Shown here: positions 1-42,122 of the stretch, one piece after another
Position numbering within the stretch: the first letter of the stretch is position 1
Layout: every line of letters begins with the position of its first letter
The notes under the pieces: model-generated
Told to the model about the DNA's origin: nothing
The model's database searches: none
The model's input: only the letters and a program-made list of their open reading frames with translations
Virus record (IMG/VR): IMGVR_UViG_3300016669_000004
Span: 1 to 42,122 of that record
Direction: 5' to 3' (one strand)
DNA: 42,122 nt
DNA from: a virus
Lineage: Duplodnaviria > Caudoviricetes
Program-made: the position numbers and the translations under genes

Positions 1-14
1 ACATAATATACATT
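1..14 (+). repeat. attL core ACATAATATACATT (dif-like)
   Basis: Identical to 42109-42122; 14/14 match to the reverse complement of E. coli-type dif (ATTTA-ACATAATATACATT-ATGCGCACC). Confidence 0.88.
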
Positions 15-25
15 TGATTGCATGA

Positions 26-38
26 CAAGCCTTTGATC
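26..38 (-). promoter_or_regulatory. Putative IHF site next to attL
   Basis: Minus strand GATCAA-AGGC-TTG vs consensus WATCAANNNNTTR (1 mismatch). Confidence 0.45.
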
Positions 39-3173: not shown

Positions 3174-4313
3174 ATGACCCAAGAAGAATGCGGAACGCTG
3201 CCACAGGTCGTCCTGGACGCCTTGGCGTGGCTTCCAAACGGCGACCAACTCCCGCGGCACCGCGAATACCTCATGACCCGCGAAAAACGCTTCGCCCCGG
3301 CGATGCGGAAGATCGAGGCCGACGGGCTCCGGCCCGAGGCCCTGGCCGAGCTCTGGCTCTGGCTGGCCCACCTGGTCTTCGATCGGGCCTCGCCGCCGGG
3401 CACGACCTGTGCCTCCTACGCCAAGACCACGGGCCGGTTCCTGCTGTGGTGCGCCCGCAACGGCTACGACCACCGCACCGTGCGGATGCAGGAGTTCGAC
3501 CGCTGGGTGCGCTGGCTGGCCATCGAGTGCCGGAACTCGGCCACCTGGCGCAAGCGGCAGATCCAGTCGCTGCGGAGCTTCTACGACTGGCGCCGGTCGC
3601 GCGGCATCGCCGCCACCAACCTGGCGGCCGACCTGCAGGCGCCCAAGCCCAAGATCAAGCCGGCCCGCAAGTACACCGACGACCAGCTGCGCGCCCTGTT
3701 CCGGGCCATCGGCCAGTCCACCGAGCTGCGCCAGGTGCGCGACAAGTGCGCGGTGCTGCTGCTGCTGGCCACCGGCCTGCGGCGCGAGGAACTTGGAAAC
3801 CTGCAGATGCACCAGCTGGAGCTGACAGCCAGGCGCGGGGTCGTGCGGGTGATGGGCAAGGGCGCCAAGGAGCGCGACATCCCGTTCGAGGGGCCGGTGG
3901 TGGATGCGCTGCATGCCTGGCTCAACAAGCGCGACGGCCTACCCTACGATTGCGACCCGAATGCCGTGTTCATCTCCACCTTTGGCCAGACCCAGGGCCA
4001 GGCGCTGACCGTGCGCGGGTTCGAGGAGATGGTGTCCATCCATGCCCGCGCCGCTGGCCTGCGCGAGTGGGGCATCCATCGCTTCCGGGTCACCTTTGCC
4101 ACCCAGCTGTACGACGACGGCGCGGACATCGAGACCATCCGCCACCTGATGGGCCACGAATCCATCGAAACCACGCGCCGCTACCTGGCCGTGTCCGAAC
4201 GCGCCCGCCGCACCCGGCTCAGCGCAAACCGCCAGCACCGCGTGCTGGGCACCAAACCGACCGGCGCCCCGCTGTGGGTGCGCCTTGCCACAGGGGGCAT
4301 GGACAGTGATTGA
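3174..4313 (+). CDS. Tyrosine recombinase, XerC/XerD-like (no. 1)
   Basis: TGLRREE (R), GKGAKER (K), HRFR, MGHESIETTRRY: full catalytic set. Confidence 0.93.
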   Translation: MTQEECGTLPQVVLDALAWLPNGDQLPRHREYLMTREKRFAPAMRKIEADGLRPEALAELWLWLAHLVFDRASPPGTTCASYAKTTGRFLLWCARNGYDHRTVRMQEFDRWVRWLAIECRNSATWRKRQIQSLRSFYDWRRSRGIAATNLAADLQAPKPKIKPARKYTDDQLRALFRAIGQSTELRQVRDKCAVLLLLATGLRREELGNLQMHQLELTARRGVVRVMGKGAKERDIPFEGPVVDALHAWLNKRDGLPYDCDPNAVFISTFGQTQGQALTVRGFEEMVSIHARAAGLREWGIHRFRVTFATQLYDDGADIETIRHLMGHESIETTRRYLAVSERARRTRLSANRQHRVLGTKPTGAPLWVRLATGGMDSD

Positions 4314-4690: not shown

Positions 4691-5479
4691 GTGAAAGACC
4701 CAGACCGCCCCCGCCGCAAGTTGTCCGAAGCCGAGCTCGAGCAGCGCCGCGCCGCCTCGCGCAACAAGCGCACCGTCACCCCGGCGATGCTGGCTGCCAA
4801 CCGCGAGCGCGCCAAGCTCAGCACCGGCCCCATCACCCCCGAGGGCAAGGCCCGCTCCAGCCGCAACGGCTGGAAGACCGGCCTGCACAGCCGCATCCAC
4901 AAGCTGCACTTTGACGCCGGCATGGTCTCGCTGCTGGGCGCCAAGGGCAAACCCTGCGTCAGCACCTGCCCCAAGTTTTCCACCTGCACGCTGGTGGCCG
5001 ACGGCCTCACCAGCCCAGGCGGCGACTGCCTGGACAAGGAGCGATTCGTGCAGGCGTTCGATGCGATCATCGAGGCCGTGCAGGGCGGTGAGATGGCCGG
5101 CATGCACGGCCTGATGGCCTCCGAACTTGCCGCCGCGTTGCAGATGCTGCATGACCTGCGCACCACCATGGCAGACCAGGGCCTGGTGATCGGCATCCCC
5201 ATGATCTCGCCCGAGGGTGAGGTGGTGCGCCGCGCCGATGGCTCTGAGGTCATCGGCAAGTACGTGCCAAACCCCGGCTACCCGCTGATGCTCAAGCAAC
5301 TGGAAGTGATGGGGATCAGCCTGCCCGAGATGCTGGTCACCCCGCAGTCCAAGGAGCGCGCCAAGACCGGAAAGCAGCAGACCGATGCGCTGTCCACCAT
5401 GATGGGCGAGATTGCCGGCCGCGCCGCCGGCATGCGCCCGGCCGCCGTCGGCCTGCCGCACGAAGCGGACGGCGACTGA
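4691..5479 (+). CDS. Putative terminase small subunit
   Basis: Upstream of TerL; STGPITPEGKARSSRNGWKTG motif; start codon uncertain. Confidence 0.6.
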   Translation: MKDPDRPRRKLSEAELEQRRAASRNKRTVTPAMLAANRERAKLSTGPITPEGKARSSRNGWKTGLHSRIHKLHFDAGMVSLLGAKGKPCVSTCPKFSTCTLVADGLTSPGGDCLDKERFVQAFDAIIEAVQGGEMAGMHGLMASELAAALQMLHDLRTTMADQGLVIGIPMISPEGEVVRRADGSEVIGKYVPNPGYPLMLKQLEVMGISLPEMLVTPQSKERAKTGKQQTDALSTMMGEIAGRAAGMRPAAVGLPHEADGD

Positions 5480-5480
5480 C

Positions 5481-7352
5481 ATGGCCACGCGGCAAAACAA
5501 GGCCGGCAGCATGCATCGCCGCATGCTCGATGCCGGCGTGTACGAGCTGGACGAATTCGACGCCTGGATGCAGGCGCGCGGCTGGGCGTGGCAGGGGCTG
5601 GAAAACGGCGTCTACGGCGTGAGCATCGCCGATGCCATGGTCCTGTACACGGTCGAGGACCCGGTGCGCTTCTGCGAGACCTTCATGAAGCGCAACGACG
5701 GATCGCCGTATCGATTCTTCGATTATCAGCGCGAAAGCATCCGCACTTGGAGGCAGGACACGGTAACAATTGCTGGCGCGGAGGTCGGTAAGTCGGTCGA
5801 GCTAACAGCTCTCCTGCTTTGGGGCCACATTACCGGATTCGGCTTTCAAATCAAGGCCCCAACCTCGCTGGTGGCCGCGCCGCAGCAGATCTTCCTCAAC
5901 GAGATCATCGATGCCATCGAGCGGCAGATCGGCGTGTTCAAGGCCATGGAGGGCGAGAGCATCCTCAAGGATGCCTGGATCGAGCCGCGGCGCACCCCGC
6001 ACACCCAACTGCGCCTGCGCAGCTGGGTGGCCGGCGGAAAGCCGGCATTGGCGACCATCGACTTTCGCCCAGCTGGCCATGACGGCAGCGCCTTCCGCGG
6101 CGTGCACTCGACCGCGCTGGTGATGGTGGACGAGGCGGCCAAGATGAAGGCCCAGGTGCAGTGGACCGAGCTGTACCGCGCCCGCATGCCAGGCTGCAAG
6201 AGCCGCTTCTACTCGGTGCCCGATGGAGACCGCAGCACCGAGTTCTACCGCCTCTCGCAAGCAGCGGTGATCGGCCTGCCCGAGGGCCAGCCTGGCTTCC
6301 GCAAGTTCCACTGGCCCAAGACGCTGATGCCGCCGCCGTTCTGGTCGGAGGAACGCGACCGCGAGTTCGTGCGCCTGTACGGCGGCCGCAATACCCCCGG
6401 CTACCAGCGCAACGTGATGGGCGAGTGGGGCGATGCCGAGAACCCGGTCTGGCCGTGGGCGCAGCTGCTGCCCAACATCGTGGACCTGCCCGATTTCCGC
6501 ATCATCAAGCTGATCGCCGACACAGAGGCCGATGTGCTGTCCATCGAGGTCATGGCCTGCACCATGTCCATCCACGATGGCCGCAAGACCGGCAACTACA
6601 CCTGGCTGCAAGATGGCTCCATCCCCCTGCAGCCGCTGCTGCGCGGCGGTGACGACCAGCGCCGGCAGGCCATGCTGGACATCCTGCGCCCGCACCTGAC
6701 GCCGCAGAGCATGGGCGTGTTCTACGCCGGCGCCGACCTGGGCGAGCGCGCCGACCCCACCGCCATCTACCTGAGCGAGCAGGTCGGCCAGACCCTCATC
6801 GACCGCGTGCGCGTGCATGCCCAGGGCTTCCCATATCACCTGCAAGAGGAACTGGTGGCCGCGCTGGATGGCATCTACGGGCGCCTGCCCATGTGGGGCG
6901 TGGACATGGGCTCGGCGGGCACCACGGTGGTCAAGGATTTGATCAACGTAGACCGGTTTGCGCAGTGTCACTTCGAGGACCGGCTGGTGGGGTTCCATTT
7001 CCAGCAGAACGTGGACTGCATGGGCGAGGACGGCGAGCTGCTGGAACAGGAAGACCCGCAAACCGGCGCCACCCACGTGGCCGTGGCCCCGGCCAAGCAC
7101 TGGGCCAGCCAGTGCATCAGCGCCCGCCTGCAGGCCGGCGGCTATGCCATGGCCTACGACACCGACGCGCTCAACGACATGGTCACCCAGACCGCCCGCG
7201 AGGGCGCGCGCTTCCCCATCTACTCCAAGCAGCGCGACCACATCCCCGATGCCCGCCGCCAGCAGATGCTGATCCGCCTGCATGCCCTGCGCGCCGAGGG
7301 CAGCGGACATGACCTGTTCGTCTCGGGAACCTCAGAAAGGCACGCCGCGTGA
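5481..7352 (+). CDS. terL: Terminase large subunit
   Basis: Walker A-like EVGKS, Walker B VMVDEAA, nuclease YAGADLG and C-terminal DHIPDA. Confidence 0.88.
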   Translation: MATRQNKAGSMHRRMLDAGVYELDEFDAWMQARGWAWQGLENGVYGVSIADAMVLYTVEDPVRFCETFMKRNDGSPYRFFDYQRESIRTWRQDTVTIAGAEVGKSVELTALLLWGHITGFGFQIKAPTSLVAAPQQIFLNEIIDAIERQIGVFKAMEGESILKDAWIEPRRTPHTQLRLRSWVAGGKPALATIDFRPAGHDGSAFRGVHSTALVMVDEAAKMKAQVQWTELYRARMPGCKSRFYSVPDGDRSTEFYRLSQAAVIGLPEGQPGFRKFHWPKTLMPPPFWSEERDREFVRLYGGRNTPGYQRNVMGEWGDAENPVWPWAQLLPNIVDLPDFRIIKLIADTEADVLSIEVMACTMSIHDGRKTGNYTWLQDGSIPLQPLLRGGDDQRRQAMLDILRPHLTPQSMGVFYAGADLGERADPTAIYLSEQVGQTLIDRVRVHAQGFPYHLQEELVAALDGIYGRLPMWGVDMGSAGTTVVKDLINVDRFAQCHFEDRLVGFHFQQNVDCMGEDGELLEQEDPQTGATHVAVAPAKHWASQCISARLQAGGYAMAYDTDALNDMVTQTAREGARFPIYSKQRDHIPDARRQQMLIRLHALRAEGSGHDLFVSGTSERHAA

Positions 7353-7392
7353 ACTGCTTGCGCCCATCGCCACAGCCAAAGGACATCCGCCC

Positions 7393-9531
7393 GTGAACCT
7401 GCACCCTCTCGATCCGCGCGGCTGGTTTGGGCGCAAGGATGCACTGGATTCAACCCGCAACCAGGGCGGCATGCTGGCCGCCGCCCAGCGCCAGTCCAGC
7501 CCGATGGGCGCATGGTCCGGCGTGATCGGCCAGTGGCAGCCGCGTGCGCGCTCGCCCTACCTGCTGGAGGCCCTGCGCGAGGCGATCCCCATCCTGGACG
7601 GCGGCATCAACCGGCTGGTGACCCTGGACGGCATCCTCACCGTCGAGGGCGACAACGACGCGCTGGTGCAGGAGATCGACACCTGGATGCGCAACGTGCC
7701 TGTCAATGACCTGGAGTGCGGCTACCAGGCCTTCTACGCCGGGCAGGGTGCCGAGCACTACGAGCAGGGAGTGGGCCTGGGCGAGTTCGTCTACGACCGC
7801 CGCGGGCGCGATGTGATCGGACTGCGCGTGGCCGACAGCAAGGGCCTGGCCTTTGTGCGCGAGACCGACCGCCTGCGCGTGTTCTACCGCACGCCGGAGG
7901 CCACCCGCGACCTGCGCCCCGATGGCCTTGGCGCGGTGGAGCAGCTGCTGTCTGGCACCACTCGCGGAGATACCGTCAGCGGGCTGCGCAGCGAGGGATT
8001 TGTCGAGCTGGACGCGCGCCAGTGCAGCTTTGCCCTGCATCGGCCCGAGGCCGACGACCCCTATGGGGTCAGCATCCTGCGCAGCATGCCGTTTGTCGCG
8101 CAGATCCTGCTGAAGATGGAAAACGCCGCAGGCCGGGCATGGGAGCGCTTTGGCGACCCCAGCTTCCACGTCCACTACGGAACGAAAAACCGCAAGGTGG
8201 ACGCGGCCGAGGCCGACCGGCGCGCCCGCGCCATCGCCGCCGACCTGGCCAAGGCCCTGCAGGCCAAGGCGCGCGGCAACAGCGTGGACCTGAGCACGGC
8301 GGCGGCCATGGACGATGAGATCACCATCGGGGTGATCGGCGCCAACGGCACGGCGCTGGAAATCGAGGCCCCGGCCCGGCACATCCTGGAGCAGATCGTG
8401 GCCGGCTTTGGCCTGCCGGGCTGGATGCTGGGCGTAACCTGGAGCCAGGCGGCCGGCATCGGCGAGCAGCAATCTGTGATCGTGCTGCAGGAAGCGCAGA
8501 CGCGCTTCGAGCTGCGCGAGCCGCAGCTGCGCCGGCCGGTGGAGGCCATGCTGCGCGCCCGCGGCCGCACCTGGAAGAATGGGGACTGGAAGCTGGTGCA
8601 GGTCACGCCAAACTTGATGGACATCCAGAAGCGCGCCCAGGCCGACTTCCTGGCCGCGCAGACGGCCATGATGCTGGGCCAGACCAGCCAGCCCTTGCCA
8701 AGCCCGCGCGGCGTGGACAATGGCCTGCGCGCCAGCCGCGGCGCGCCACGGCGCAAGTCCGGTTCCAAGGCCGGTGGAGACGATGAGGAAGATGGCGGGG
8801 AAAGCTGGGCGCAGCGTGATCCTGCGCTTCCCAGGCTTGAATCCGCCACCATCGACAGGCTGCTGGGCCGCTGGGTCGAACTGCGCGATGACGTGTTCGA
8901 TGAGCTTGGCCTTGATGGCATGGCCGATGACGACTTCCGCTTCGACCAGGACCTCACCGCATCACTGGCCGCACGTGGCAATGCCGCGCAGTCCTCGATG
9001 ACCAAGACTCTTGTGGGGGCCCAGCAAAGCGCATGGGAGCGCGGGATCGCAAATGCAGGGCTCGAAGTATCCGCAGATTTTGGCGATGCGCTGGTGCGCG
9101 CGGCCATCGCCGCCGCCCGCGAGCGCATCCGCACCGTCTATGCGACCAGCGGGCTGGAGCTGGTCAGGTCTGGCATCGCCCGCGAGTACCAGACACGCAT
9201 CGTTGCAGCGCTCACCTCCGGCGAGTTCGACGGCCAGAACCCAGTCAATGTGGCCGCCGCGCTGCGCGCAAGATTCGCGGCAGGTAACTACAACTGGGAG
9301 CGCCTTGCCAGGACCGAGATTGCGATGGCGCAGTCTGAAGGCAAGCTCGACCTGCTGCGGCAGCAGGGTGTCACCCGCTACGATTACGAGACCGCCAACG
9401 ATGCCCTGGTCTCGCGCATCTGCCGCACCCTAGCCGCCGCCGGCCCATACCTGGTGGCAGATCCTGCGTCACCGATACCGGGCCGCGACAGCCACCCCCA
9501 GTGCCGCTGCACCATCATGCCAAGGGATTGA
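7393..9531 (+). CDS. Portal protein fused to MuF-type minor head domain
   Basis: Follows TerL; PYGVSILR and ERFGDP portal motifs; C-terminal RLARTEIAMAQ...HPQCRCTI MuF signature. Confidence 0.82.
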   Translation: MNLHPLDPRGWFGRKDALDSTRNQGGMLAAAQRQSSPMGAWSGVIGQWQPRARSPYLLEALREAIPILDGGINRLVTLDGILTVEGDNDALVQEIDTWMRNVPVNDLECGYQAFYAGQGAEHYEQGVGLGEFVYDRRGRDVIGLRVADSKGLAFVRETDRLRVFYRTPEATRDLRPDGLGAVEQLLSGTTRGDTVSGLRSEGFVELDARQCSFALHRPEADDPYGVSILRSMPFVAQILLKMENAAGRAWERFGDPSFHVHYGTKNRKVDAAEADRRARAIAADLAKALQAKARGNSVDLSTAAAMDDEITIGVIGANGTALEIEAPARHILEQIVAGFGLPGWMLGVTWSQAAGIGEQQSVIVLQEAQTRFELREPQLRRPVEAMLRARGRTWKNGDWKLVQVTPNLMDIQKRAQADFLAAQTAMMLGQTSQPLPSPRGVDNGLRASRGAPRRKSGSKAGGDDEEDGGESWAQRDPALPRLESATIDRLLGRWVELRDDVFDELGLDGMADDDFRFDQDLTASLAARGNAAQSSMTKTLVGAQQSAWERGIANAGLEVSADFGDALVRAAIAAARERIRTVYATSGLELVRSGIAREYQTRIVAALTSGEFDGQNPVNVAAALRARFAAGNYNWERLARTEIAMAQSEGKLDLLRQQGVTRYDYETANDALVSRICRTLAAAGPYLVADPASPIPGRDSHPQCRCTIMPRD

Positions 9532-12450: not shown

Positions 12451-13551
12451 ATGAAGCTCTCGATCAACTACGACGGCCTGGCCGCCATCAACGGCGCCGA
12501 TGCCCAGCGCAGCGCGCTGTTTGCAAGCCTCAAGGCCGCCATGCTGCTGCCGGTGCTGATGAACGACGTGCTGGGCGCCGATGAGGCCGCCGCGGCCTCG
12601 ATGTCTGGCGGAAAGTCGATCATGCACGGCGGCAGCGAAGGGCTGACCACCGAGCGGGTCAAGGCCTACCTGCAGTCCGACCGCGCCGCCCGCCATGGCG
12701 CCAAGTGGGCCACCCCCGGCGACAATCCGCTGCTGCAGACCACCAGCGCGGCCGTGGTGTCCTTCTACGCGAGCAACGTGCGCGAGATGGACCTGGGCTA
12801 CCAGGTGCTGTTCGACGAGGTGCCCGGCATGCTGGGCAGCAACCAGGACAGCTTCGAGATCCGTGGCGCGTCGATGGGCTTCACCTGGGAGCAGATCAAG
12901 CCCGGTGGCGCGATCAAGCCGCGGCGCAACATCAACGAGACCAGCGCGGCGGTCAAGTACCTGACCTTTGGCGATGGGTTCAGCATCCTGGACGAGTGGT
13001 TCCAGTTCAGCAAGTACTACCACATCGCCGACGCCATCAACGAGTACATGTCCACGTACTACGACCGCAAGGCCGCGCTGCACTACGGCCTGCTGACCGG
13101 CCTTGGCGCCAGCATCAACGTGGCCTTTGCCACCGATGCGCAGACCACCTTCAACGCGGCGGTGTCCTCGATCCTGCGCAAGGTGGAGGCCAAGGGCTAC
13201 GCGGTGGGCAGCAACCCGCAGGTGGACATCGTGGTCAGCCCCGAGCGCGTGGGCTACGTGCTGGCCTTTCTTGAGGCCAGCCGCGGCAGCACCATGGTGC
13301 AGTACGGCGTGGCCAAGCAGCCGGTGGCATTCTCCGTGCGCAACGTCATCGTGACCACCAAGGTCACCGCCGCGGACACCGGCTACTACGTGGTGCTGCC
13401 GGGCCGCAAGCTCAAGCGGGCCGATTGGAAGGCGCTGACAATCGAGTCCAAGCGCGATCCCAGCGTGGCCGCCGAGGACTGGTACGGCCGCGGGCAGTAC
13501 AACGCCGTGGTCGGCGACCAGGACCAGGTCGCACGCGTGGCCTTCAGCTGA
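12451..13551 (+). CDS. Major capsid protein
   Basis: Position after protease and cement genes; 366 aa; strongly biased codons. Confidence 0.72.
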   Translation: MKLSINYDGLAAINGADAQRSALFASLKAAMLLPVLMNDVLGADEAAAASMSGGKSIMHGGSEGLTTERVKAYLQSDRAARHGAKWATPGDNPLLQTTSAAVVSFYASNVREMDLGYQVLFDEVPGMLGSNQDSFEIRGASMGFTWEQIKPGGAIKPRRNINETSAAVKYLTFGDGFSILDEWFQFSKYYHIADAINEYMSTYYDRKAALHYGLLTGLGASINVAFATDAQTTFNAAVSSILRKVEAKGYAVGSNPQVDIVVSPERVGYVLAFLEASRGSTMVQYGVAKQPVAFSVRNVIVTTKVTAADTGYYVVLPGRKLKRADWKALTIESKRDPSVAAEDWYGRGQYNAVVGDQDQVARVAFS

Positions 13552-30194: not shown

Positions 30195-30391
30195 TGGACA
30201 ACGTCGAAGCCACTCGCAACACCCTTCGCACCCACCGCGGCACCTGGCCCGACATCGCACAGTCGGCTGGCCTGTCGTACTGGTGGCTGCTGAAATTCGC
30301 CCAGGGCCAGATCAAGGAGCCTGGGGCCGCCAAGATGGAGAAGCTGAAGACAGAGCTGGCACTGCGCCGCCCCAAGGCCAGGGCCGCCTGA
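30194..30391 (+). CDS. Cro-like regulator
   Basis: 65 aa HTH WPDIAQSAGLSYWWLLKFAQGQIKEPG; divergent from cI. Confidence 0.8.
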   Translation: MDNVEATRNTLRTHRGTWPDIAQSAGLSYWWLLKFAQGQIKEPGAAKMEKLKTELALRRPKARAA

Positions 30392-31152
30392 TGCGTGCCA
30401 TCGGCTACATCCGCGTCTCCACCGAGGAGCAGGGCCGCGACGGGCACTCGCTGGCCATGCAGCCCGAGCGCATCCGCCAGTGGTGCGCGCTGCACGAGCT
30501 GGAGCTGGTCAACATCATCGAGGACCGCGGGGTCAGCGCGGGCACGCCGCTGGACAAGCGCAAGGGCGGGGTGCATCTGATGCAGGCGCTGAGCGCCGGC
30601 GAGGCGCAGGTGGTGGTGGTGTTCCGGCTGGACCGGCTGTTCCGCGACACGTTGGACGGGCTGCTGTTCTTCCGCCAGTTCGCCGAGCCGCGCGGGCTTG
30701 TGGTGCAGTCGGTCAGCGAGCTGATCGACACCGGCACCCCGCAGGGCCGGCTCAACCTCAACCTGCAGCTGTCGCTGGCCGAGTACGAGCGGGCGGTCAC
30801 CTGCGAGCGCAACAGCGCGGTGGCCCGCCACCTGCGCCAGGCCGCGCGGCCGTTTGGCTACACGCCCTATGGGGTGGTCAGGATCGAGGGCCGGCTGTAC
30901 CGCGACCCGGAAACCTGGCCCTACCGCGAACGCATCATGGCCCTGCGCGCGCAGGGCAAGAACGGCCGGCCGTGCAGCCTGGAGCGCATCTCCGAGGCGC
31001 TGCACGAGCTGGGCATCCCCGCCCCGCATGGCGGGCGGCGGTGGAACAAGCCAAGCATCGCGCGAGTGATCAAGACCCATGAGGCGATGGAGCATTACCC
31101 GCCGGCGCCAAAGGGCCAAGAAGCCGTGGTTTCACGTGGAGAGCTGCAATGA
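30391..31152 (+). CDS. Serine recombinase (resolvase domain plus short recombinase-type C-terminus)
   Basis: AIGYIRVSTEEQ catalytic Ser motif, VFRLDRLFR, PFGYTPYG. Confidence 0.92.
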   Translation: MRAIGYIRVSTEEQGRDGHSLAMQPERIRQWCALHELELVNIIEDRGVSAGTPLDKRKGGVHLMQALSAGEAQVVVVFRLDRLFRDTLDGLLFFRQFAEPRGLVVQSVSELIDTGTPQGRLNLNLQLSLAEYERAVTCERNSAVARHLRQAARPFGYTPYGVVRIEGRLYRDPETWPYRERIMALRAQGKNGRPCSLERISEALHELGIPAPHGGRRWNKPSIARVIKTHEAMEHYPPAPKGQEAVVSRGELQ

Positions 31153-32804: not shown

Positions 32805-33037
32805 TGCAGCTCCCACACATCCTGCGCATCTGTGTCGAAGCCAGGAGGAACAACAGCCCGGGGCCACTTTCTACCGGCGAGGCCCTGGCCGCGGCCATCG
32901 TGCTCGATCGGCCGGAGTGGATCAAGGCCATGGGATACACCCTGGCCGAGGCCATCGCCCGCGTCGATGACGATGGCCAGACCATGCCGCGCCTGCTCAA
33001 GGCCCAGCAGCTGCTTGAAGGCGAGGTGGCAGCATGA
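32804..33037 (+). CDS. Hypothetical protein
   Basis: Coupled ORF; LSTGEALAAAIVLDRPEWI.AMGYTLAEAIARV. Confidence 0.65.
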   Translation: MQLPHILRICVEARRNNSPGPLSTGEALAAAIVLDRPEWIKAMGYTLAEAIARVDDDGQTMPRLLKAQQLLEGEVAA

Positions 33038-33981
33038 ACGCACAAGCCCCTGTCTTCATCGATACCGCCATCAACCAGTACCTGGTCATCCGCCAGGCGC
33101 GCGGGCTGGCGCACAACACCATCCTGGCCTACGGCGCCGACTTGCGGCACTTCGCAGCCTACGCGGCCGGCTTTGACACCACGGTGGTGCAGCTGATCAG
33201 CGAGCGGCTGGTCAACCGGTGGATCGACACCGGCCTGTTGCACCTCAAGTGGTCCCGCCGCACCGCCGCGCGCAAGCTGGAGGCCGTGCGCGGCTTTACC
33301 GCCTGGTGCCGGCGCGAGCGCTACATCCAGCACGACCCGTGCCAGGACCTGCGCATCCGCTTCCGTCCACGCCGTGTGATCGCCCCGGAGATGGGGCCGC
33401 TGCGCGAGATGGTGTCCGGCATCGGCACCACCACGCCGGTGGACCTGCGCGACCGCGCCATGCTGCTGCTGATGCTGGATGCGGCCCTGCGCGCCAACGA
33501 GGTGGCCCAGCTGGATATCCGCCCGCCAGGCGCGGCCATCCCCAGCTACTGGGCCGACACCAGCCACCTGCGCGTGTACGCCATGCCCAAGGGCGGCGAG
33601 GCGGGCGATGCGGACATGGTGGGCATGGAGGACCAGACTGCCGCGGCCATCGATGCCTGGCTGGCGGTGCGCCACAAGCTGGCCGGCGCGGGTGAGACGG
33701 CGCTATTCGTCAACCAGCATGGCCGCCGGATCAGCCGCGGCGGCCTGTACCACGTGGTGCGCGCGCGCGGCGCCGCTGCCGGCATTGCCCGCCTGCATCC
33801 GCACAAGCTGCGCCACCGCCGCATCGGCGACATCACCGAGGCCCTGGGCCTGCACATCGCCAGCGCCCAGGCCCGCCACCGCAACACCAGCACCACTGCC
33901 AGCATCTACGGTGCCCACGCCGCCGAGGTCCAGCGCGCCGCCGTGCGCCAGCTGGCGCCGGTGGGGGAGGTGCGGGCATGA
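33034..33981 (+). CDS. Divergent tyrosine recombinase (no. 2)
   Basis: Xer-like N-terminus RGLAHNTILAYGADL; ALRANE (R), PKGG (K), HPHKLRH, ARHRNTSTTASIY (H, Y). Confidence 0.88.
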   Translation: MNAQAPVFIDTAINQYLVIRQARGLAHNTILAYGADLRHFAAYAAGFDTTVVQLISERLVNRWIDTGLLHLKWSRRTAARKLEAVRGFTAWCRRERYIQHDPCQDLRIRFRPRRVIAPEMGPLREMVSGIGTTTPVDLRDRAMLLLMLDAALRANEVAQLDIRPPGAAIPSYWADTSHLRVYAMPKGGEAGDADMVGMEDQTAAAIDAWLAVRHKLAGAGETALFVNQHGRRISRGGLYHVVRARGAAAGIARLHPHKLRHRRIGDITEALGLHIASAQARHRNTSTTASIYGAHAAEVQRAAVRQLAPVGEVRA

Positions 33982-34645: not shown

Positions 34646-34652
34646 GGCCTCC

Positions 34653-36521: not shown

Positions 36522-36838
36522 GCAACACCACTCTGACCGACGGATCGCCCGTCACGCCCGACCACCGCGACATTGACCCGGCCACAGGCATGCAGAAGGG
36601 CTATGTGGTCTTGAGCGCCGAAGAGCGCGCCAAGGGCTTCGTGCGGCCTGTGCGCCAGTCCTACGTGCACACCAAGTGCGGTGGCGTGACGACGATGGGC
36701 CTTGCATTGGCCGAGACCTATGCGCGCGACCCCAAGTTCTACAGCGGCATGTATTGCGCGATTTGCCGCACCCACTTCCCAGTGGGCGCCGATGGTGAGT
36801 TCACGTGGAAGGGCACGGACGAGAAAGTGGGCACGTGA
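36518..36838 (+). CDS. Conserved phage hypothetical protein (Cys-containing)
   Basis: GMQKGYVVLSAEERAKGFVRPVRQSYVH.KCG...ETYARDPKFYSGMYCAIC. Confidence 0.78.
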   Translation: MSNTTLTDGSPVTPDHRDIDPATGMQKGYVVLSAEERAKGFVRPVRQSYVHTKCGGVTTMGLALAETYARDPKFYSGMYCAICRTHFPVGADGEFTWKGTDEKVGT

Positions 36839-36839
36839 C

Positions 36840-36929
36840 GCCTAACACCTGAGTTAAGCGGTGCCGCACCCGCGCGGCACCAGATAGGAGAGATAACGAT
36901 GCGGCATCCGCTTGAACGAATTGTTAGGC
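36840..36929 (-). repeat. attC site 1 (90 bp)
   Basis: Minus strand GCCTAAC-AATTC-GTTCAAGC...GCTTAAC-TCAGGT-GTTAGGC. Confidence 0.88.
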
Positions 36930-37336
36930 CCGACCTGGTGCCTGGAGTGGTGCGGTGTGCGAAGTGCAGCTTTCAATTGCACCGCACGAATCTGCACATG
37001 AGCAACGGAACAACAAGCGCAGGGGACAGCGACACCGAGCCGTGCCCGAACGGCTGCGGCCCGCTGTGGCCTGTAACTTGGAAGCAATGGGCCGAAGAAG
37101 CAAGCGCCACAGCTGAAAGGTTCTTTGACGAATCCCAAGAAGCAAAAAAGCTGGTGGACGACTTGGCGTATCTGGTGCGGCGATTAGCCCATTCACTCGA
37201 TAAGCCGAGTGGAAACTGCCTCTTGGCGAGGCAGGCAGTGGACTACTTGCGACGGCATGACCTAGAAGGGTCAACATTGCGCGATCAAGGGCATAACGCT
37301 CCGCATAAGCCGCGTAGCGAAGCGGAGTCGGCTTGA
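36899..37336 (+). CDS. Cassette E gene: phage Zn-ribbon hypothetical protein
   Basis: VPGVVRCAKCSF...PCPNGCGPLWPVTW; RBS and ATG lie inside attC1, stop inside attC2. Confidence 0.72.
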   Translation: MRHPLERIVRPDLVPGVVRCAKCSFQLHRTNLHMSNGTTSAGDSDTEPCPNGCGPLWPVTWKQWAEEASATAERFFDESQEAKKLVDDLAYLVRRLAHSLDKPSGNCLLARQAVDYLRRHDLEGSTLRDQGHNAPHKPRSEAESA

Positions 37337-37350
37337 TGCGGTTGTTAGGC
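37291..37350 (-). repeat. attC site 2 (60 bp)
   Basis: Minus strand GCCTAAC-AACCG-CATCAAGC...GCTTATG-CGGAGC-GTTATGC. Confidence 0.88.
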
Positions 37351-37366
37351 GATTTTGGAGGATGAG

Positions 37367-37702
37367 ATGAGCGACGATTATTACTACAGCGGGCAGTATG
37401 CCGAAGAACAGGCCGAGGCCGAGGCGCAGGCAAAAGAGTTTGCGCACCGACCTGGGCCATGGCATGTCAGCGAGCACACCGAAGGAAGCGAGGCGCTAAT
37501 TTACGACGCCGATGGGTTTGAGGTTGCGCGGGTGTGCTACCCAAACCGGAATGCGGACGCGAAGCTGATTGCTGCTGCGCCTGAACTTCTCCAATCGGCA
37601 AGCGCGGCATTGCATTACATGCGACTGCACAAGTACGCGGATCAGGCATGGGCTGATGATTTGGAGGCTGCGATTGCTGCGGCCATGACGCCTAACACCT
37701 GA
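37367..37702 (+). CDS. Cassette D gene: phage hypothetical protein
   Basis: GGAGG RBS; HRPGPW...DAKLIAAAPELL phage motif. Confidence 0.78.
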   Translation: MSDDYYYSGQYAEEQAEAEAQAKEFAHRPGPWHVSEHTEGSEALIYDADGFEVARVCYPNRNADAKLIAAAPELLQSASAALHYMRLHKYADQAWADDLEAAIAAAMTPNT

Positions 37703-37749
37703 ATTAAGCCGACAGCCGAAGGCTGTTCGGCTTGAATGAATTGTTAGCC
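37690..37749 (-). repeat. attC site 3 (60 bp)
   Basis: Minus strand GGCTAAC-AATTC-ATTCAAGC-CGAACAGCCTTCGGCTGTCG-GCTTAAT-TCAGGT-GTTAGGC, textbook attC layout. Confidence 0.93.
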
Positions 37750-37776
37750 GTCAACCCGACGGCATGGAGAAACGAC

Positions 37777-38052
37777 ATGCAAGAACCGACGATATTGCCA
37801 GTGAAGCCCGGCACCGTGAGCGATGCGGACAAGGCCGCGTTGAGGGATGCCGGAGTGGTGGTCATTGAACACGAAGCACCACATGAACTGCGCTTGTTGC
37901 GCCTCGGATACGACTTGCCAGGAGGCGCGCTGCTGCTCGCAGCGGCCAAGGCATTGACGACAGAAAACAGTCTTGGTGCAGACATCCAACGGCGGGTATT
38001 CGGGAAAAATGTGGCAGACGCCTTGATCAAAACCATGACGGCTAACGCCTGA
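37777..38052 (+). CDS. Cassette C gene: hypothetical protein
   Basis: GGAG RBS; fills the cassette. Confidence 0.72.
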   Translation: MQEPTILPVKPGTVSDADKAALRDAGVVVIEHEAPHELRLLRLGYDLPGGALLLAAAKALTTENSLGADIQRRVFGKNVADALIKTMTANA

Positions 38053-38099
38053 AATCAGCCGACTTGCGAAGCAAGTTCGGCTGCATTGAATTGTTAGGT
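38040..38099 (-). repeat. attC site 4 (60 bp)
   Basis: Minus strand ACCTAAC-AATTC-AATGCAGC...GCTGATT-TCAGGC-GTTAGCC. Confidence 0.88.
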
Positions 38100-38123
38100 G
38101 GCGAACCACCGAAGGAGATTGGA

Positions 38124-38432
38124 ATGGGAGTTGCGCAAGAGAACCGAATCCGTAGGCGGATGATTGAGGACGGCCATCGCAAAAATGATCTTGTACGCCT
38201 GTTTGAGGCGGCAAGCATGGAGCGGGGCCCGAGACCGCCCGCTGTGAAGCCGCCAGCGACGGCGCGTCGTCGAGACGTGCGGCGGTGGATGCAGCACAAC
38301 GCGGGTGATTACGACACTGCGACCGCGCTTGCCGAGGCAGCGAATGCAGTATTTCGGCTACCTGATGGCGGACTTGACTGCGAGACTCATTGGATCTGGG
38401 ATGAAGCCGCAGAAGCAATTGAAGCCACCTAA
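38124..38432 (+). CDS. Cassette B gene: hypothetical protein
   Basis: AAGGAG RBS; stop TAA lies within the ACCTAAC core. Confidence 0.72.
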   Translation: MGVAQENRIRRRMIEDGHRKNDLVRLFEAASMERGPRPPAVKPPATARRRDVRRWMQHNAGDYDTATALAEAANAVFRLPDGGLDCETHWIWDEAAEAIEAT

Positions 38433-38486
38433 CACCGGAAATAAGCCGCCCTGCGAAGCAGGGTCGGCTTGATTGACTAGTTATGC
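38427..38486 (-). repeat. attC site 5 (60 bp)
   Basis: Minus strand GCATAAC-TAGTC-AATCAAGC...GCTTATT-TCCGGT-GTTAGGT. Confidence 0.88.
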
Positions 38487-38502
38487 CGCGCAACGAGGAG
38501 CC

Positions 38503-38946
38503 ATGCTGACAATCACGCCAATAACGCTACGCGAGGCAAATGCCTACGTCGCGGCCAATCACCGGCACCACCAGCCGGTGCGCGGGTGCATTGCCTGCAT
38601 GGCTGTGAGCGATGGCGACCTGGTGCGCGGCGTGGCGATTGTGGGGCGGCCAGTGGCGAGGCGGCTGCAAGACGGCTGGACAGCAGAAGTGACGCGGTGT
38701 TGCACGGACGGCGCGAAGAACGCGCCGAGCATGCTCTACCGCGCAGCATGGCGCGCTGTGCGTGCGCTGGGATACAGGCGGCTTGTGACGTACACGCTGC
38801 CGGAGGAAGGCGGCGCGAGCCTGCGCGCAGCTGGCTGGCGCTGCATTGGCCAAGCCGGAGGTGGGATCTGGAATTGCCCGAGCCGGCCGCGAGTGGATAT
38901 GCACCCGCTGCAAGTGAAACTGCGGTGGGAATTGGAAGCGGCATAA
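38503..38946 (+). CDS. Cassette A gene: XF1762/Mom-like GNAT-fold protein
   Basis: ITLREANAYV..HRHH...GVAIVGRPVARRLQDG.TAEVTR...GYRRLVTYTL..EGGASLRAAGW. Confidence 0.75.
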   Translation: MLTITPITLREANAYVAANHRHHQPVRGCIACMAVSDGDLVRGVAIVGRPVARRLQDGWTAEVTRCCTDGAKNAPSMLYRAAWRAVRALGYRRLVTYTLPEEGGASLRAAGWRCIGQAGGGIWNCPSRPRVDMHPLQVKLRWELEAA

Positions 38947-39020
38947 CACCAATTATCCGCCGCATCTGCAACGTAACGCCGCGATCCCAGACAACCCAAA
39001 CGAAAACGAAGGCGTAACAG
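38941..39020 (-). other. attI-like terminal site of the cassette array
   Basis: Core G/TTATGC with no attC hairpin; two GTTACG direct repeats upstream on the minus strand. Confidence 0.5.
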
Positions 39021-39058
39021 GCCCGCGATGATCACAGAGCAACAGCAGGACAAGGCCC

Positions 39059-40630
39059 ATGGCTGACGGCTCGCACTCCTTCAATTTCCCGCCGCCTCAG
39101 CACTCGCGGCTGCGCCCGGGCGAGATCATCGTGGATCTATTCGCCGGAGGTGGCGGAGCCAGCGAGGCGCTCAAGCAGGCGCTCGGCCGCGACCCAGACT
39201 TGGCCTACAACCACGACGCATGGGCCATCGGCATGCACGCGGCAAACCATCCGCTCACATCCCACCATCGCGAGGACATCTGGCACGCAGACCCACGCAT
39301 CGATGTCGCCGGGCGCCAAGTTGGCTGGTTTCATGCCAGCCCAGATTGCACGCATTTCTCTCAAGCAAAAGGCGGCCAGCCGCGCAGCGGCAAGATCCGC
39401 TCGCTGACGTGGGTCATCCTCAAGTGGGTTGGGCAGCTCAGGCGTGCCGACCAGATCAACTGCACCAGCACCGCCCCGCGCATCATCTCGCTCGAGAACG
39501 TCTGGCAGATCCTGACCTGGGGCCCGCTGGTTGCAAAGCGTGACAGGACCACCGGCCGCGTGTTGAAGCTGGATGGCAGCGTGGCTGGGCGCGGCGAGCG
39601 TGTGCCCAGGAACATGCAGCAGCTTGTCCCTGACAAGCGCCACGCGGGCCGTACCTGGCGCAAGTTCGTCGCTGCCCTGCGTGGCATGGGCTACGCCGCG
39701 GAGTGGCGCAAGCTCACGGCCAGCGACTACGGCGCCGGCACCAGCCGCGCCAGGCTGTTCCTGGTCGCTCGGCGCGATGGAGAGCCGATCCGGTGGCCAG
39801 CACCGACCCATGGCAAGGAACCTGGCCTGCTGCCACTGGTCACCGCCGCCGATTGCATCGACTGGTCCATTCCATGCCCCTCGATCTTCGCCCGCCGCAA
39901 GCCTCTGGCCGATGCCACGCTGCGCCGGATTGCCAAGGGCGTGCACCGTTACGTCCTGGACACCGCCGAGCCATTCATCGTGTGCGGGGGTGGGCTCCAG
40001 GGCCACTGCGTCCCCACACTGGTCGCCTGCGCCAATGCCAGCGCCAGCGGCGTGACAGCCGCAGATGCGCCGCTTGGGACCATCACCGCCTGGCCACGCG
40101 GCGGAAGCACTGCGCTGGTGACGGCCTTCATCGAGCAGGCCAACGGCGGCTTCTACAACGGCGCCGGGAATGACCTGCGACGGCCGATGCCAACCATCTG
40201 CGGCACCGGCAGCCAACAGCGGCTGGTCGCCGGCTATCTGGCCGCGGCCGAAGCACCAGAGCACGAGGCCACCGCCCTGCGCGTGGCCGCTTTCCTGACG
40301 ACCTACTACGGCACCGGCGGCGCCGTGAAGCTGACAGATCCGCTGGACACGATCACAACCCGAGATCGGCTGGCCCTGGTCACCGTGACCATCAAGGGCA
40401 TGCCCTACGTCATCATCGATATCGGCCTGCGCATGCTCAAGCCGCACGAACTCTACCGAGCCCAGGGATTTCCAACCGGCTACGTCATCGACCGCACCGC
40501 CGACGGCCGCCGCCTGACCACCAGCGCCTCAGTCCGCATGGTCGGCAACAGCGTGAGCCCACCGCCCCTGCGCGCCATCGCCACCGCCAACCTTGACACG
40601 GCCCAGATGCAGCTTGCGGAGGCCGCATGA
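39059..40630 (+). CDS. C5 DNA cytosine methyltransferase (orphan)
   Basis: VDLFAGGGG, SPDCTHFS, LENV, RARLF, MVGNSVSPP. Confidence 0.92.
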   Translation: MADGSHSFNFPPPQHSRLRPGEIIVDLFAGGGGASEALKQALGRDPDLAYNHDAWAIGMHAANHPLTSHHREDIWHADPRIDVAGRQVGWFHASPDCTHFSQAKGGQPRSGKIRSLTWVILKWVGQLRRADQINCTSTAPRIISLENVWQILTWGPLVAKRDRTTGRVLKLDGSVAGRGERVPRNMQQLVPDKRHAGRTWRKFVAALRGMGYAAEWRKLTASDYGAGTSRARLFLVARRDGEPIRWPAPTHGKEPGLLPLVTAADCIDWSIPCPSIFARRKPLADATLRRIAKGVHRYVLDTAEPFIVCGGGLQGHCVPTLVACANASASGVTAADAPLGTITAWPRGGSTALVTAFIEQANGGFYNGAGNDLRRPMPTICGTGSQQRLVAGYLAAAEAPEHEATALRVAAFLTTYYGTGGAVKLTDPLDTITTRDRLALVTVTIKGMPYVIIDIGLRMLKPHELYRAQGFPTGYVIDRTADGRRLTTSASVRMVGNSVSPPPLRAIATANLDTAQMQLAEAA

Positions 40631-41073
40631 GCCGCGGCTACCAGCGCGTCATCGTCACTGGCCACCTCGGCGCCGCGCCAGAGATCAAGGCCCCACCAGC
40701 CGGTGGGCTGATCGCAGAGTTCCGCGTGGCCGTCACCGACCGCTGGAAAAACAGGGCAGGGCAGTGGGACGAACACACCGAGTGGCTGGGCATCAAGGCC
40801 TTTGGCCGCACCGCCGAGATCGTCCAGCAGTATCTGCGCAAGGGCGGCCTGGTATCGGTGGAGGGCAAGATCAGGACAGAGAAATGGCAGGCCAGCGACG
40901 GCAGCGACCGCTACCGCCAGTGGATCTACTGCGACCCCACCGGCCTGACCCTGCTTGATCGGCGCGAACACACCGTCACCGCGCCTGAGCACCAGGGCAG
41001 GGCAGCCCATCCAGCAGCGCGCCCCGGCGCCACACCAGCACATGAGCACGCCGATGACGACATCCCATTCTGA
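40627..41073 (+). CDS. ssb: Single-stranded DNA-binding protein
   Basis: VIVTGHLGAAPE...TEW...YLRKG..VSVEGKIRT.KW; DDDIPF C-terminus. Confidence 0.93.
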   Translation: MSRGYQRVIVTGHLGAAPEIKAPPAGGLIAEFRVAVTDRWKNRAGQWDEHTEWLGIKAFGRTAEIVQQYLRKGGLVSVEGKIRTEKWQASDGSDRYRQWIYCDPTGLTLLDRREHTVTAPEHQGRAAHPAARPGATPAHEHADDDIPF

Positions 41074-41074
41074 T

Positions 41075-42037
41075 TCACGGCGCCACGCGCCTGGCCCGCG
41101 GGTGATGGCTTGCCGCCTGCTTCAGCGTGGCCATGTCGATGCCAAGGTAGCGCGTCGTGGTCTCGATGCTGGCATGCCCGAGCATCTGGCTGATCGCCAT
41201 CAAATTGCAGCCGCTGCGCTGCAGTTCAGTGGCAAAGGCGTAGCGCAGTTGGTGCGGGTAGTGTCCCGTCCATGGTCGGCCAGTGCCGGGCCGGATGCGG
41301 TCTGCGCCGCAGGAGATGCCAAGCGCCTTGCGCGCGTAGCGGTTGACGATCACCCAGACCGAGCGGCCATCGCGCAGCGGGCGGCCAAAGCGGGTGACAA
41401 ACAGCGCCGCACGCTTTCCGGCCCCAACGCTCGCCCGCTGGCGCACATAGGCCTCCACCAGCCCATGCCAGGCCGCACCAAACGGCACCAGCCGGTCGCG
41501 GCCGCCCTTGCCCTGCACATACAGCAGCCCGTCCAGTCGCACGCTGCCAAGCTGCAGCCGTGCAAGCTCCCCGGCCCGCAGCCCACACTGGTACAGCGTG
41601 GCCATGATCAAATGGTCGCGCAGACCCACGAAGGTGGACAGGTCAGGCTGGGCCAGCAACAGGCCCACTTCGGCATCGCTCAACGCCATCACCGGCCGCC
41701 GCACCACAGGCCGTGTCACTGGCCAGTCCACCGGCGCCCAGGCCGTGGCATCAACCAGCCGCCGCCAGCCGAACCAGCACCGCAGCGCCGCCAGCTCGCG
41801 CTTGAGCGTGGCCGGCGCCAGCCGCTCGCGCCGGCTGGCCACGTAGCGCAGCACAGGGTCCAGCTCAGCCGGAACCCGCTCCGCGAACAGCAAAAACCGC
41901 GTCACCGTCCCACCGTAGTCACGCACCGTCGCAGCGCTACGCCCCATGCCGCGCAAGTACCACCGGAAGTCCTCAACCGCCCCCGAAGGCGGAGAGCAAT
42001 AACGCCGCGTTCTTTCTACCAACGGTAAAACCTCCAT
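41075..42037 (-). CDS. Tyrosine recombinase/integrase, XerD-like (no. 3), next to attR
   Basis: CGLRAGE (R), GKGGRDR (K), PHQLR, LGHASIETTTRY. Confidence 0.93.
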   Translation of the reverse strand: MEVLPLVERTRRYCSPPSGAVEDFRWYLRGMGRSAATVRDYGGTVTRFLLFAERVPAELDPVLRYVASRRERLAPATLKRELAALRCWFGWRRLVDATAWAPVDWPVTRPVVRRPVMALSDAEVGLLLAQPDLSTFVGLRDHLIMATLYQCGLRAGELARLQLGSVRLDGLLYVQGKGGRDRLVPFGAAWHGLVEAYVRQRASVGAGKRAALFVTRFGRPLRDGRSVWVIVNRYARKALGISCGADRIRPGTGRPWTGHYPHQLRYAFATELQRSGCNLMAISQMLGHASIETTTRYLGIDMATLKQAASHHPRARRVAP

Positions 42038-42063
42038 CGCAACGCAACGGAGAACCGCTGAAA

Positions 42064-42076
42064 AATCAAAGCCTTA
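42064..42076 (+). promoter_or_regulatory. Putative IHF site next to attR
   Basis: AATCAA-AGCC-TTA, perfect WATCAANNNNTTR. Confidence 0.6.
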
Positions 42077-42108
42077 TCAAGTGCAACATCCAGCCAATTC
42101 TAGTCTGG

Positions 42109-42122
42109 ACATAATATACATT
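42109..42122 (+). repeat. attR core ACATAATATACATT (dif-like)
   Basis: Direct repeat of 1-14. Confidence 0.88.

What the first reader, a model, noticed from the sequence alone, without database searches (positions are those of the whole stretch)
42052..42122. Tailed dsDNA phage integrated at dif with both attP arms degenerate
Seen: the terminal repeat ACATAATATACATT (also 1-14) equals the inner XerD arm, the TATACA spacer and the first two XerC-arm bases of dif. The reconstituted attP is TCTGGACATAA-TATACA-TTTGATTGCAT: the XerD-side arm is partly kept and the XerC-side arm is largely lost. IHF-consensus sites flank it in inverted orientation (42064-42076, 26-38). Established: known dif users are mostly filamentous phages, TLC-like satellites and islands relying on host XerCD. 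Inference: this 42-kb siphophage may use its own Xer-like enzymes, alone or mixed with host Xer, in an IHF-assisted complex, and the lysogen may depend on attR or phage enzymes for dimer resolution.
Basis: partly seen in the sequence, partly recalled or inferred. Interest (0 to 1): 0.82.

Follow-up and report, generated by a model that had tools for sequence, protein, structure and literature searches.

The report
Tailed phage family integrating at dif
This 42-kb tailed phage inserts into the host's chromosome-dimer-resolution site (dif) through an attachment site that keeps the XerD-side arm but has lost the XerC-side arm, and it likely does so with its own Xer-type recombinase encoded beside that site; such sites have been described for filamentous and tailless phages that borrow the host enzymes.

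Summary
Confirmed in the main; the title overstates one point. The 14-bp terminal repeat is the core of dif. A sequencing run holding this phage shows host flanks that complete a 28-bp dif, plus attL, attR and attP junctions. The phage belongs to a family of about 40-46-kb tailed phages of Xanthomonadales and other gammaproteobacteria. In 39 of 40 distinct loci a dif-type site lies just upstream of the same Xer-like recombinase. In 14 of 14 prophages with both ends found, that end is a full dif and the spacer matches at both ends. Only the XerC-side arm is lost (5-10 of 11 mismatches). The XerD-side arm varies no more than native arms (0-4), though this phage's arm is at the divergent edge. 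IHF-like sites are conserved and phased (19 of 28 versus 3.2 shuffled). Best reading: the adjacent recombinase is the integrase, likely working with host Xer on dif; this is untested. A co-integrated inovirus with a similar one-armed site and no recombinase keeps a host-only route open. Ten paper searches found no tailed dif phage. This scan noted the same lineage earlier on other DNA.

The parts
1..14 (-). att core at the attL end: inner XerD arm (1-6), spacer (7-12), two bases shared with the host XerC arm (13-14)
   Evidence: host XerD-side flank joined here in run X1
13..23 (-). phage arm that replaces the XerC arm in attP/attL (ATGCAATCAAA on the minus strand)
   Evidence: 8 of 11 mismatches to native XerC-arm consensus; family motif N-S-S-T-R-W-N-C-N-A-M
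26..38 (-). IHF-like site, 1 mismatch, ending 2 nt outside the phage arm
   Evidence: same register (-14 to -17) in 7 of 28 family attP sites
42104..42114 (-). phage XerD-type arm (TTATGTCCAGA on the minus strand); becomes the XerD arm of the regenerated dif (attR)
42109..42122 (-). att core at the attR end; the host XerC arm continues beyond 42122
42064..42076 (+). IHF consensus site, perfect match, 27 nt from the XerD arm
   Evidence: a site at +28 to +31 in 14 of 28 family attP sites
41075..42037 (-). Xer-type tyrosine recombinase P0001 (Y1), 320 aa, transcribed away from att; the likely integrase
33034..33981 (+). second tyrosine recombinase P0002 (Y2), catalytic residues conserved, role open
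3174..4313 (+). third tyrosine recombinase P0003 (Y3), just upstream of the packaging genes, catalytic residues conserved, role open
30385..31152 (+). short serine recombinase next to the repressor, conserved in the family, role open
5412..7352 (+). terminase large subunit
   Evidence: phrog_2
7282..9531 (+). portal fused to a Mu F-like minor head domain
12451..13551 (+). major capsid protein
   Evidence: PF25209
15065..26948 (+). tail tube, chaperone, tape measure, tail tip and J-like central fibre; no sheath found among the 58 ORFs scanned (siphovirus-type tail)

Best explanation
The phage integrates at the host dif site through a one-armed attP (XerD arm and host-matched spacer kept, XerC arm replaced), and the adjacent phage recombinase Y1 is likely the integrase, predicted to sit on the attP arms of DNA likely bent by IHF and to recombine them with dif likely still bound by host XerC/XerD. 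Shown: the site, its polarity, the regenerated full dif at the Y1 end, the one-armed junction at the far end, excised-type attP junctions, and the intact Xer-type enzyme. Inferred: Y1 binds attP (its XerD arm well, the phage arm weakly); IHF supplies the architecture that Y1's missing arm-binding domain cannot; both strand pairs are exchanged, so the whole 6-bp spacer must match; Y1 replaces the FtsK or XafT trigger. The lost XerC arm would stop FtsK/XerCD from excising the prophage during dimer resolution, while attR keeps dimer resolution working.
For: Tight linkage: 39 of 40 distinct loci have TTATGT 62-209 nt upstream of the Y1 homologue, and the 40th has a one-base variant; about 0.02 is expected per 150-nt window. 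Polarity is fixed, with identical spacers at both ends in 14 of 14 two-ended prophages across six spacer types. The catalytic R, H, R, H and Y are kept in 26-27 of 27 homologues. Y1 has an Xer-type two-domain fold with no arm-binding domain. It carries the C-terminal HPR motif in 22 of 27 homologues, as do 7 of 7 XerC and 28 of 28 XerD but 0 of 15 Y2 and 0 of 14 Y3; that this tail mediates XerC-XerD contacts is recalled, not from a call. Y1 is closer to host XerD (35-37%) than XerC (28-30%) in 3+3 valid comparisons. The phage arm is a conserved motif of its own, with 0.45-1.09 bits at positions 2-6 against a flank mean of 0.17, and A10 in 28 of 28. IHF-like sites occur on the XerD side in 19 of 28 (shuffled mean 3.2, max 9) and on the phage-arm side in 10 of 28 (2.4, max 6), against 1 of 12 and 2 of 13 host flanks. 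No XafT-family (DUF3653) gene is found in six frames of the window. All 5 lysogen genomes tested keep xerC and xerD.
Against: No experiment; which protein sits on which arm is not observed. Y1 forms its own clade, not nested in XerC or XerD, and the quick tree does not resolve its sister group. In G529 an inovirus at the same dif has a similarly one-armed site, no recombinase among the 8 ORFs scanned, and a DUF3653 gene, so host XerCD plus an activator may accept such sites. DJR phages with 17-bp one-armed attP are classed as host-Xer users (PMC12715192, section 7). Two more intact tyrosine recombinases are conserved and unexplained. Nine of 28 attP sites lack an IHF-like site on the XerD side at <=1 mismatch. 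Spacer identity at both ends could also arise by conversion over cycles in one host lineage.
Confidence: 0.48

Rival explanations
1. Y1 acts alone as a homotetramer, with IHF, using dif simply as its attB. Host XerC/XerD are bystanders that must be displaced.
For: Same linkage and catalytic conservation. Simple integrases without an arm-binding domain exist, for example Brujita (PMC8138268 passages). The phage-arm positions T4, A6 and A10 match an inverted XerD-type arm, so one XerD-like enzyme could read all four arms.
Against: Three arms share CATAA while the fourth is very different, which is awkward for one enzyme. The Xer-type HPR tail is kept only in Y1 among the three phage enzymes. The XerD arm's outer bases stay dif-like, although attR function alone would explain that.
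Confidence: 0.27
2. The phage is a true IMEX: host XerCD catalyse integration at the one-armed attP, and Y1 serves as activator, excisionase or resolvase of phage circles.
For: Hosts keep xerC and xerD. The spacer always matches the host's. An inovirus without a recombinase uses a one-armed site at the same dif. XafT helps XerCD synapse imperfect sites (PMC9226527 abstract and introduction). One-armed DJR attP sites are described.
Against: No XafT-family gene in the window. A complete catalytic set is kept in Y1 across 36-73% identity, always next to attP. Phased IHF-like sites occur on phage flanks and not on host flanks; I know of no IHF requirement for IMEX integration (recalled).
Confidence: 0.15
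3. The phage encodes a complete two-enzyme Xer-like pair, Y1 with Y2 or Y3, one reading XerD-type arms and the other the phage arm, independent of host Xer.
For: All three tyrosine recombinases are present and syntenic in 5 of 5 whole genomes compared, with conserved catalytic residues. No second att-like repeat was seen next to Y2 or Y3 among the largest repeats listed.
Against: Y2 and Y3 lie 8 kb and 3 kb from attP in other operons and lack the HPR tail. Phage proteins with this fold can be regulators (SPbeta MrpR and phi3T SroF appear among the fold hits).
Confidence: 0.1

Closest known systems
dif-type double-jelly-roll phages with one-armed 17-bp attP (PM2, Cr39582 and Vibrio prophages; PMC12715192 passages and section 7; PMC11630473 passages)
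   Same: dsDNA phage at dif; attP with one arm plus spacer (PM2's site matches the XerD arm); one junction regenerates dif; tandem arrays.
   Different: Those are 13-kb tailless phages with an XafT-like P15 and, in PMC12715192, no integrase; PMC11630473 notes some with integrases, role unresolved. This is a 42-kb tailed phage with no DUF3653 gene, a dedicated Xer-type recombinase beside attP, phased IHF-like sites and a conserved substitute arm.
TLCphi-type IMEX and the gonococcal genetic island (PMC9226527 abstract and introduction; PMC5357621 passages)
   Same: Double-stranded attP with full spacer homology and one degenerate arm; a degenerate junction is thought to protect against FtsK-driven excision.
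   Different: Mirror image: they lose the XerD arm and keep the XerC arm, and depend on host XerCD (with XafT or FtsK). Here the XerC arm is lost and the element encodes its own catalytically intact enzyme.
CTXphi, VGJphi and Xanthomonas inoviruses Cf16-v1/phiLf
   Same: Integration at dif, including the Xanthomonadales dif (PMC2731167 passages).
   Different: ssDNA filamentous phages without integrase; CTXphi uses XerC-first exchange resolved by replication (PMC9226527 introduction).
Lambda-type temperate phages with tyrosine integrase and IHF
   Same: Integrase gene beside attP, short core, IHF sites flanking the core (lambda layout recalled).
   Different: Y1 has no N-terminal arm-binding domain, and the target is dif, not a tRNA or other gene.
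Tyroviruses of Bacillus (PMC9703825 passages)
   Same: Three conserved Xer-like tyrosine recombinases in one tailed phage.
   Different: 160-170-kb Bacillus phages with a perfect inverted-repeat site of their own; no dif integration in the passages read. Homology to this family was not tested beyond phage-database searches that returned no such record among the rows shown.
Phage MACPNOA1 (KY697807.1)
   Same: Same family: all four recombinases in the same order and a one-armed dif-like attP beside the Y1 homologue.
   Different: Deposited as a Microcystis phage with no att site annotated; Y1 identity 43%.

Membership tests
IMEX (integrative mobile element exploiting Xer) | Integrates at the chromosomal dif site | tested here: met
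   terminus position in G004
IMEX (integrative mobile element exploiting Xer) | Carries a dif-like attP and regenerates dif at one junction | tested here: met
   14 of 14 two-ended prophages
IMEX (integrative mobile element exploiting Xer) | Lacks an integrase of its own | tested here: not met
   three intact tyrosine recombinases and one serine recombinase
IMEX (integrative mobile element exploiting Xer) | Depends on host XerC/XerD catalysis | not testable with these tools
   hosts keep both genes; needs mutants
TLC-type IMEX | Canonical XerC arm, degenerate XerD arm | tested here: not met
   the reverse: XerC arm 5-10 mismatches, XerD arm 0-4
TLC-type IMEX | Encodes an XafT-family (DUF3653) activator | tested here: not met
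   0 matches at E<=1 in six frames of the window; the same family was detected in a neighbouring inovirus; a remote analogue is not excluded
TLC-type IMEX | Full 6-bp spacer identity with dif | tested here: met
   14 of 14 pairs, six spacer types
CTX/VGJ-type IMEX | Filamentous ssDNA phage; intact XerC arm | tested here: not met
   terminase, portal, capsid and tail genes; XerC arm lost
XerC or XerD orthologue (for Y1) | Reaches the NCBIfam cut-off and falls inside the XerC or XerD clade | tested here: not met
   148 and 133 bits against cut-offs of 335 and 330; separate clade with support 100 (quick tree)
Tyrosine recombinase, simple (Xer-like) type (for Y1) | Core-binding plus catalytic domain, R-K-H-R-H-Y set, no arm-binding domain | tested here: met
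Lambda-type integrase system | N-terminal arm-binding domain | tested here: not met
   the model starts its core-binding helices at residue 20; no such Pfam domain
Lambda-type integrase system | IHF sites flanking the core that are needed for recombination | tested here: inconclusive
   sites are conserved and phased; binding and need are untested
Caudoviricetes, siphovirus morphotype | Terminase, portal, major capsid protein, tail tube and tape measure, no sheath | tested here: met
   (58 ORFs scanned); morphology itself not observed

The most novel reading that the evidence does not exclude
A tailed-phage family encodes its own FtsK-independent Xer-type subunit that forms a mixed recombination complex with host XerC/XerD at dif, steered by IHF: a third route to dif that is neither pure hijacking (IMEX) nor an autonomous integrase.
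Probability: 0.45. Interest if true: 0.85.

Novelty: new variant of a known kind. Interest (0 to 1): 0.72.

Why it matters
Papers read here list only filamentous, tailless and satellite phages and islands at dif, mostly borrowing host XerCD. A tailed family with a mirror-image one-armed attP, its own Xer-type enzyme and IHF sites gives a natural test of how Xer partners are chosen and how FtsK control is bypassed. It also tests how a 42-kb element survives between two direct dif-like sites. It is testable now: lysogens exist in cultured Pseudoxanthomonas, Stenotrophomonas, Luteimonas and Xanthomonas, and one relative is a deposited phage. Island-finding pipelines that discard Xer-like integrases (as PMC8138268 says of TIGER) would miss these elements. 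The spacer tracks host dif variants and may limit which hosts can be lysogenised.

Tried and rejected
Assembly-overlap artefact: rejected. The contig ends fall where host and phage paths branch, and IMG/VR classes the record as linear. 'Both arms degenerate': rejected for the family. No DNA match of window 33000-42122 in the phage collection; protein searches there found only MACPNOA1 as a family member. No host flanks in G000, which is the window itself. No sigma-70 promoter or terminator in 40900-42122. No PADLOC hit for 12 proteins. One search extracted 4 of 10 host Xer rows in the wrong frame; these were dropped, and re-extracted them. One search took the wrong far end for G529 (the inovirus junction); this was corrected and G658 added, whose numbers are the ones reported. 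The strict attC scan missed 4 of the 5 window sites and the relaxed one missed 2 of 5, so family counts of attC are floors. The careful tree did not finish, so one search is the quick tree, which leaves Y1's sister group open. Helix-J sequences were listed beside the arms, but kinship confounds any co-variation and no test was made. No complex prediction was run: a pass between two tyrosine recombinases would likely come from likeness to solved Xer dimers, and one job cannot choose among partners. The host species of this phage was not identified. The TIGER paper was not held. Literature: searches returned no paper describing a tailed phage at dif; the library lacks most subscription journals, and no supplements were read.

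Full report
Observation. The window is a whole virus record with no host DNA. Its only terminal repeat is the 14-mer at 1-14 and 42109-42122. Read on the minus strand, the joined ends give ATGCAATCAAA-TGTATA-TTATGTCCAGA. The X. campestris dif quoted in PMC2731167 (passage) has the same spacer and inner XerD arm. The gene content is that of a tailed temperate phage: terminase, portal, capsid, tube, tape measure, J-like fibre, lysis genes and repressor. It also holds three tyrosine recombinases and one serine recombinase (58 ORFs scanned).

This phage at dif. Contigs of run X1, which may be the source sample, were laid on the 98%-identical attP contig L068. One loose end before the core supplies the host XerC arm ACTTCGCATAA, and one behind it supplies the host XerD arm TTATGTAAAAA, which completes a 28-bp dif. 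Pieces for attL, attR and attP have depths of 425, 456 and 388 against about 770-800 for the phage body. These pieces carry only 30, 30 and 46 letters on the reference, so they fall under the tool's bridging rule. attP is, however, spanned in one piece in runs X3 and X5 and in L068. An attP junction can come from circles, concatemers or tandem prophages, and contigs cannot separate these. The record's ends are therefore branch points at the att core, not a k-mer overlap.

The family. The recombinase next to attR (Y1, P0001) has 119 relatives at E<=1e-62. Of 82 stored loci with the family motif and at least 200 nt upstream, 40 are distinct: 20 have a full dif upstream, 19 have a one-armed attP, and 1 (L089) has a one-base variant of the XerD arm. 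Named hosts are Pseudoxanthomonas, Lysobacter, Stenotrophomonas, Luteimonas and Xanthomonas. The family was found in 4 of 401 genomes of the order and 3 of 400 of the class, counting the centre genome each time. Both ends were found for 14 prophages, of which 13 are distinct. The other full-dif loci were on broken contigs or were not searched. In all 14 the Y1 end is a full dif, the far end carries the phage arm plus the host XerD arm, and the spacer is the same at both ends (TGTATA, TGCATA, TGCCTA, TGTACA, TACATA, TATAGA). In G004 dnaA is at 10-1317 of 3.97 Mb and the two sites are at 2.052 and 2.096 Mb. One of the 14 pairs and one of the 28 attP rows rest on the unpublished genome G002; its spacer type is also seen in G529. 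All four recombinases are syntenic in 5 of 5 whole genomes compared, including the deposited phage MACPNOA1, the only family member found in the phage collection.

The arms. After removing 5 near-duplicates, correcting G529 and adding G658, 28 attP sites remain. Phage arms differ from the native XerC-arm consensus at 5-10 of 11 positions, while native arms differ at 0-3 (the native set was selected by a pattern that fixes part of both arms). Phage XerD arms differ from the native XerD consensus at 0-2 in 24 cases and at 4 in 4 cases, including this phage; native arms differ at 0-3 in 29 of 30. So one arm is lost and one is kept. The phage arm is not random: positions 2-6 carry 0.45-1.09 bits against a flank mean of 0.17 (max 0.84), and A10 is invariant. 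For 8 of the 28 rows (far ends found by pattern) that A was part of the search pattern; it is also present in all rows found without it. Kinship among the phages inflates these values.

IHF. Matches to WATCARNNNNTTR (motif recalled) with at most one mismatch lie within 100 nt on the XerD side in 19 of 28 sites, 14 of them starting at +28 to +31. On the phage-arm side they lie in 10 of 28, 7 of them at -14 to -17. Shuffles give means of 3.2 and 2.4 (max 9 and 6), and host flanks give 1 of 12 and 2 of 13. The window's two sites sit in these registers. Binding is inferred; a phage protein with a similar motif is not excluded.

The enzyme. Y1 scores far below the XerC and XerD cut-offs and forms its own clade (quick tree). 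Its best solved relatives are XerA, XerD and XerH. The model (mean pLDDT 86.8) shows a core-binding and a catalytic domain with no arm-binding domain. Catalytic residues are conserved. The family has an 18-residue insertion before the HxLR motif, with invariant W and G, which is the least confident part of the model. Y1 ends in the HPR motif of XerC and XerD in 22 of 27 homologues; Y2 and Y3 never do. It is closer to XerD than to XerC by BLASTP.

Mechanism. The linkage, catalytic conservation, phased IHF-like sites and absence of an XafT-family gene point to Y1 as the integrase; I put about 0.85 on some Y1-catalysed route. The kept XerD arm, the Xer-type tail and the intact host xer genes make a mixed complex with host Xer the single most likely form (0.48), ahead of Y1 alone (0.27) and a phage-only pair (0.10). 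Against all of these, G529 holds an inovirus with a one-armed site, a DUF3653 gene and no recombinase among 8 ORFs scanned, and one-armed DJR attP sites are described as host-Xer substrates (PMC12715192). Host-only catalysis therefore keeps 0.15. Loss of the XerC arm would leave attL a poor partner for FtsK-driven recombination, by analogy with the gonococcal island (PMC5357621 passages); this is inference.

Literature seen. Passages: PMC12715192 (plus section 7 whole), PMC11630473, PMC2731167, PMC9703825, PMC8138268, PMC5357621, PMC9892861 and 10.1101/633727. Abstract and introduction: PMC9226527. Search listings only for the rest. Ten searches found no tailed phage described at dif; the library is incomplete, and no supplements were read, where such prophages could be listed. 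This scan earlier noted what appears to be the same lineage in another genome (e1-6289886), as well as integrase-free tailed prophages at dif in other phyla. These are unchecked notes, read after my analysis, and are not counted as support.

Verdict. A real, family-wide feature. It works like a dif-targeting element but fails IMEX membership on carrying its own recombinase, and it is the mirror image of TLC-type sites. New variant of a known kind; interest 0.72.

Noticed in passing
window 36840-38486: Five attC-like elements spaced 350-421 nt apart separate small early genes; the ORFs read on the + strand while the attC top strand appears to be the - strand (my reading). Related phages in other runs skip or swap sequence at these points, and L069 holds different cassettes. 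attC-like sites also occur in L051, L060 and L065, and none in 138 kb of host xer loci. No integron integrase is present. Such arrays in phages are known (PMC9892861 passages).
   Followed up: partly
G529 / L177 176-6556: A 6.4-kb inovirus (Rep, ssDNA-binding protein, Zot/pI family, repressor, DUF3653) sits at the same dif beside the tailed prophage, with its own XerC-arm-less junction; its DUF3653 gene lies next to the XerD arm, where Y1 lies in the tailed phage.
   Followed up: partly
L082 and L083 (one metagenome contig, 44.6 kb apart): Two copies of the recombinase gene, one beside a full dif and one beside an attP-type junction: likely a tandem double prophage.
   Followed up: no
L007 (KY697807.1) near 40498-40511: MACPNOA1 is filed as a Microcystis phage but has a proteobacterial-type dif mimic. 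PMC8138268 says Oscillatoriophycideae, which include Microcystis, lack Xer. Its lysogenic host is likely a proteobacterium.
   Followed up: partly
window 3174-4313, 30385-31152, 33034-33981: Two further tyrosine recombinases with intact catalytic residues and a short serine recombinase are core genes in 5 of 5 genomes compared; their roles are unexplained.
   Followed up: partly
whole window and five relatives: KOPS-like octamers point towards attR: 8:2 in the window and 12:4, 15:2, 14:1, 15:2 and 3:0 in relatives (no shuffle control).
   Followed up: partly
window 1463-1658 and 2590-2785; 24204-24503 and 25083-25382: A 196-nt direct repeat (95%) in the replication region and a 300-nt repeat (91%) inside the tail fibre gene.
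   Followed up: no
window 39047-40628: The DNA methyltransferase gene is skipped in related phages of runs X2, X3 and X7; a Mom-like gene lies next to it at 38473-38946.
   Followed up: no
L016, minus strand near 6393: A further dif-like site with an unusual spacer, in inverted orientation, in the host-side flank of a related prophage.
   Followed up: no
sample of Xanthomonadaceae: The dif spacer is unusually variable in this family (TGTATA, TGCATA, TGCCTA, TGTACA and others), as are the outer XerD-arm bases (27 types in 30).
   Followed up: partly
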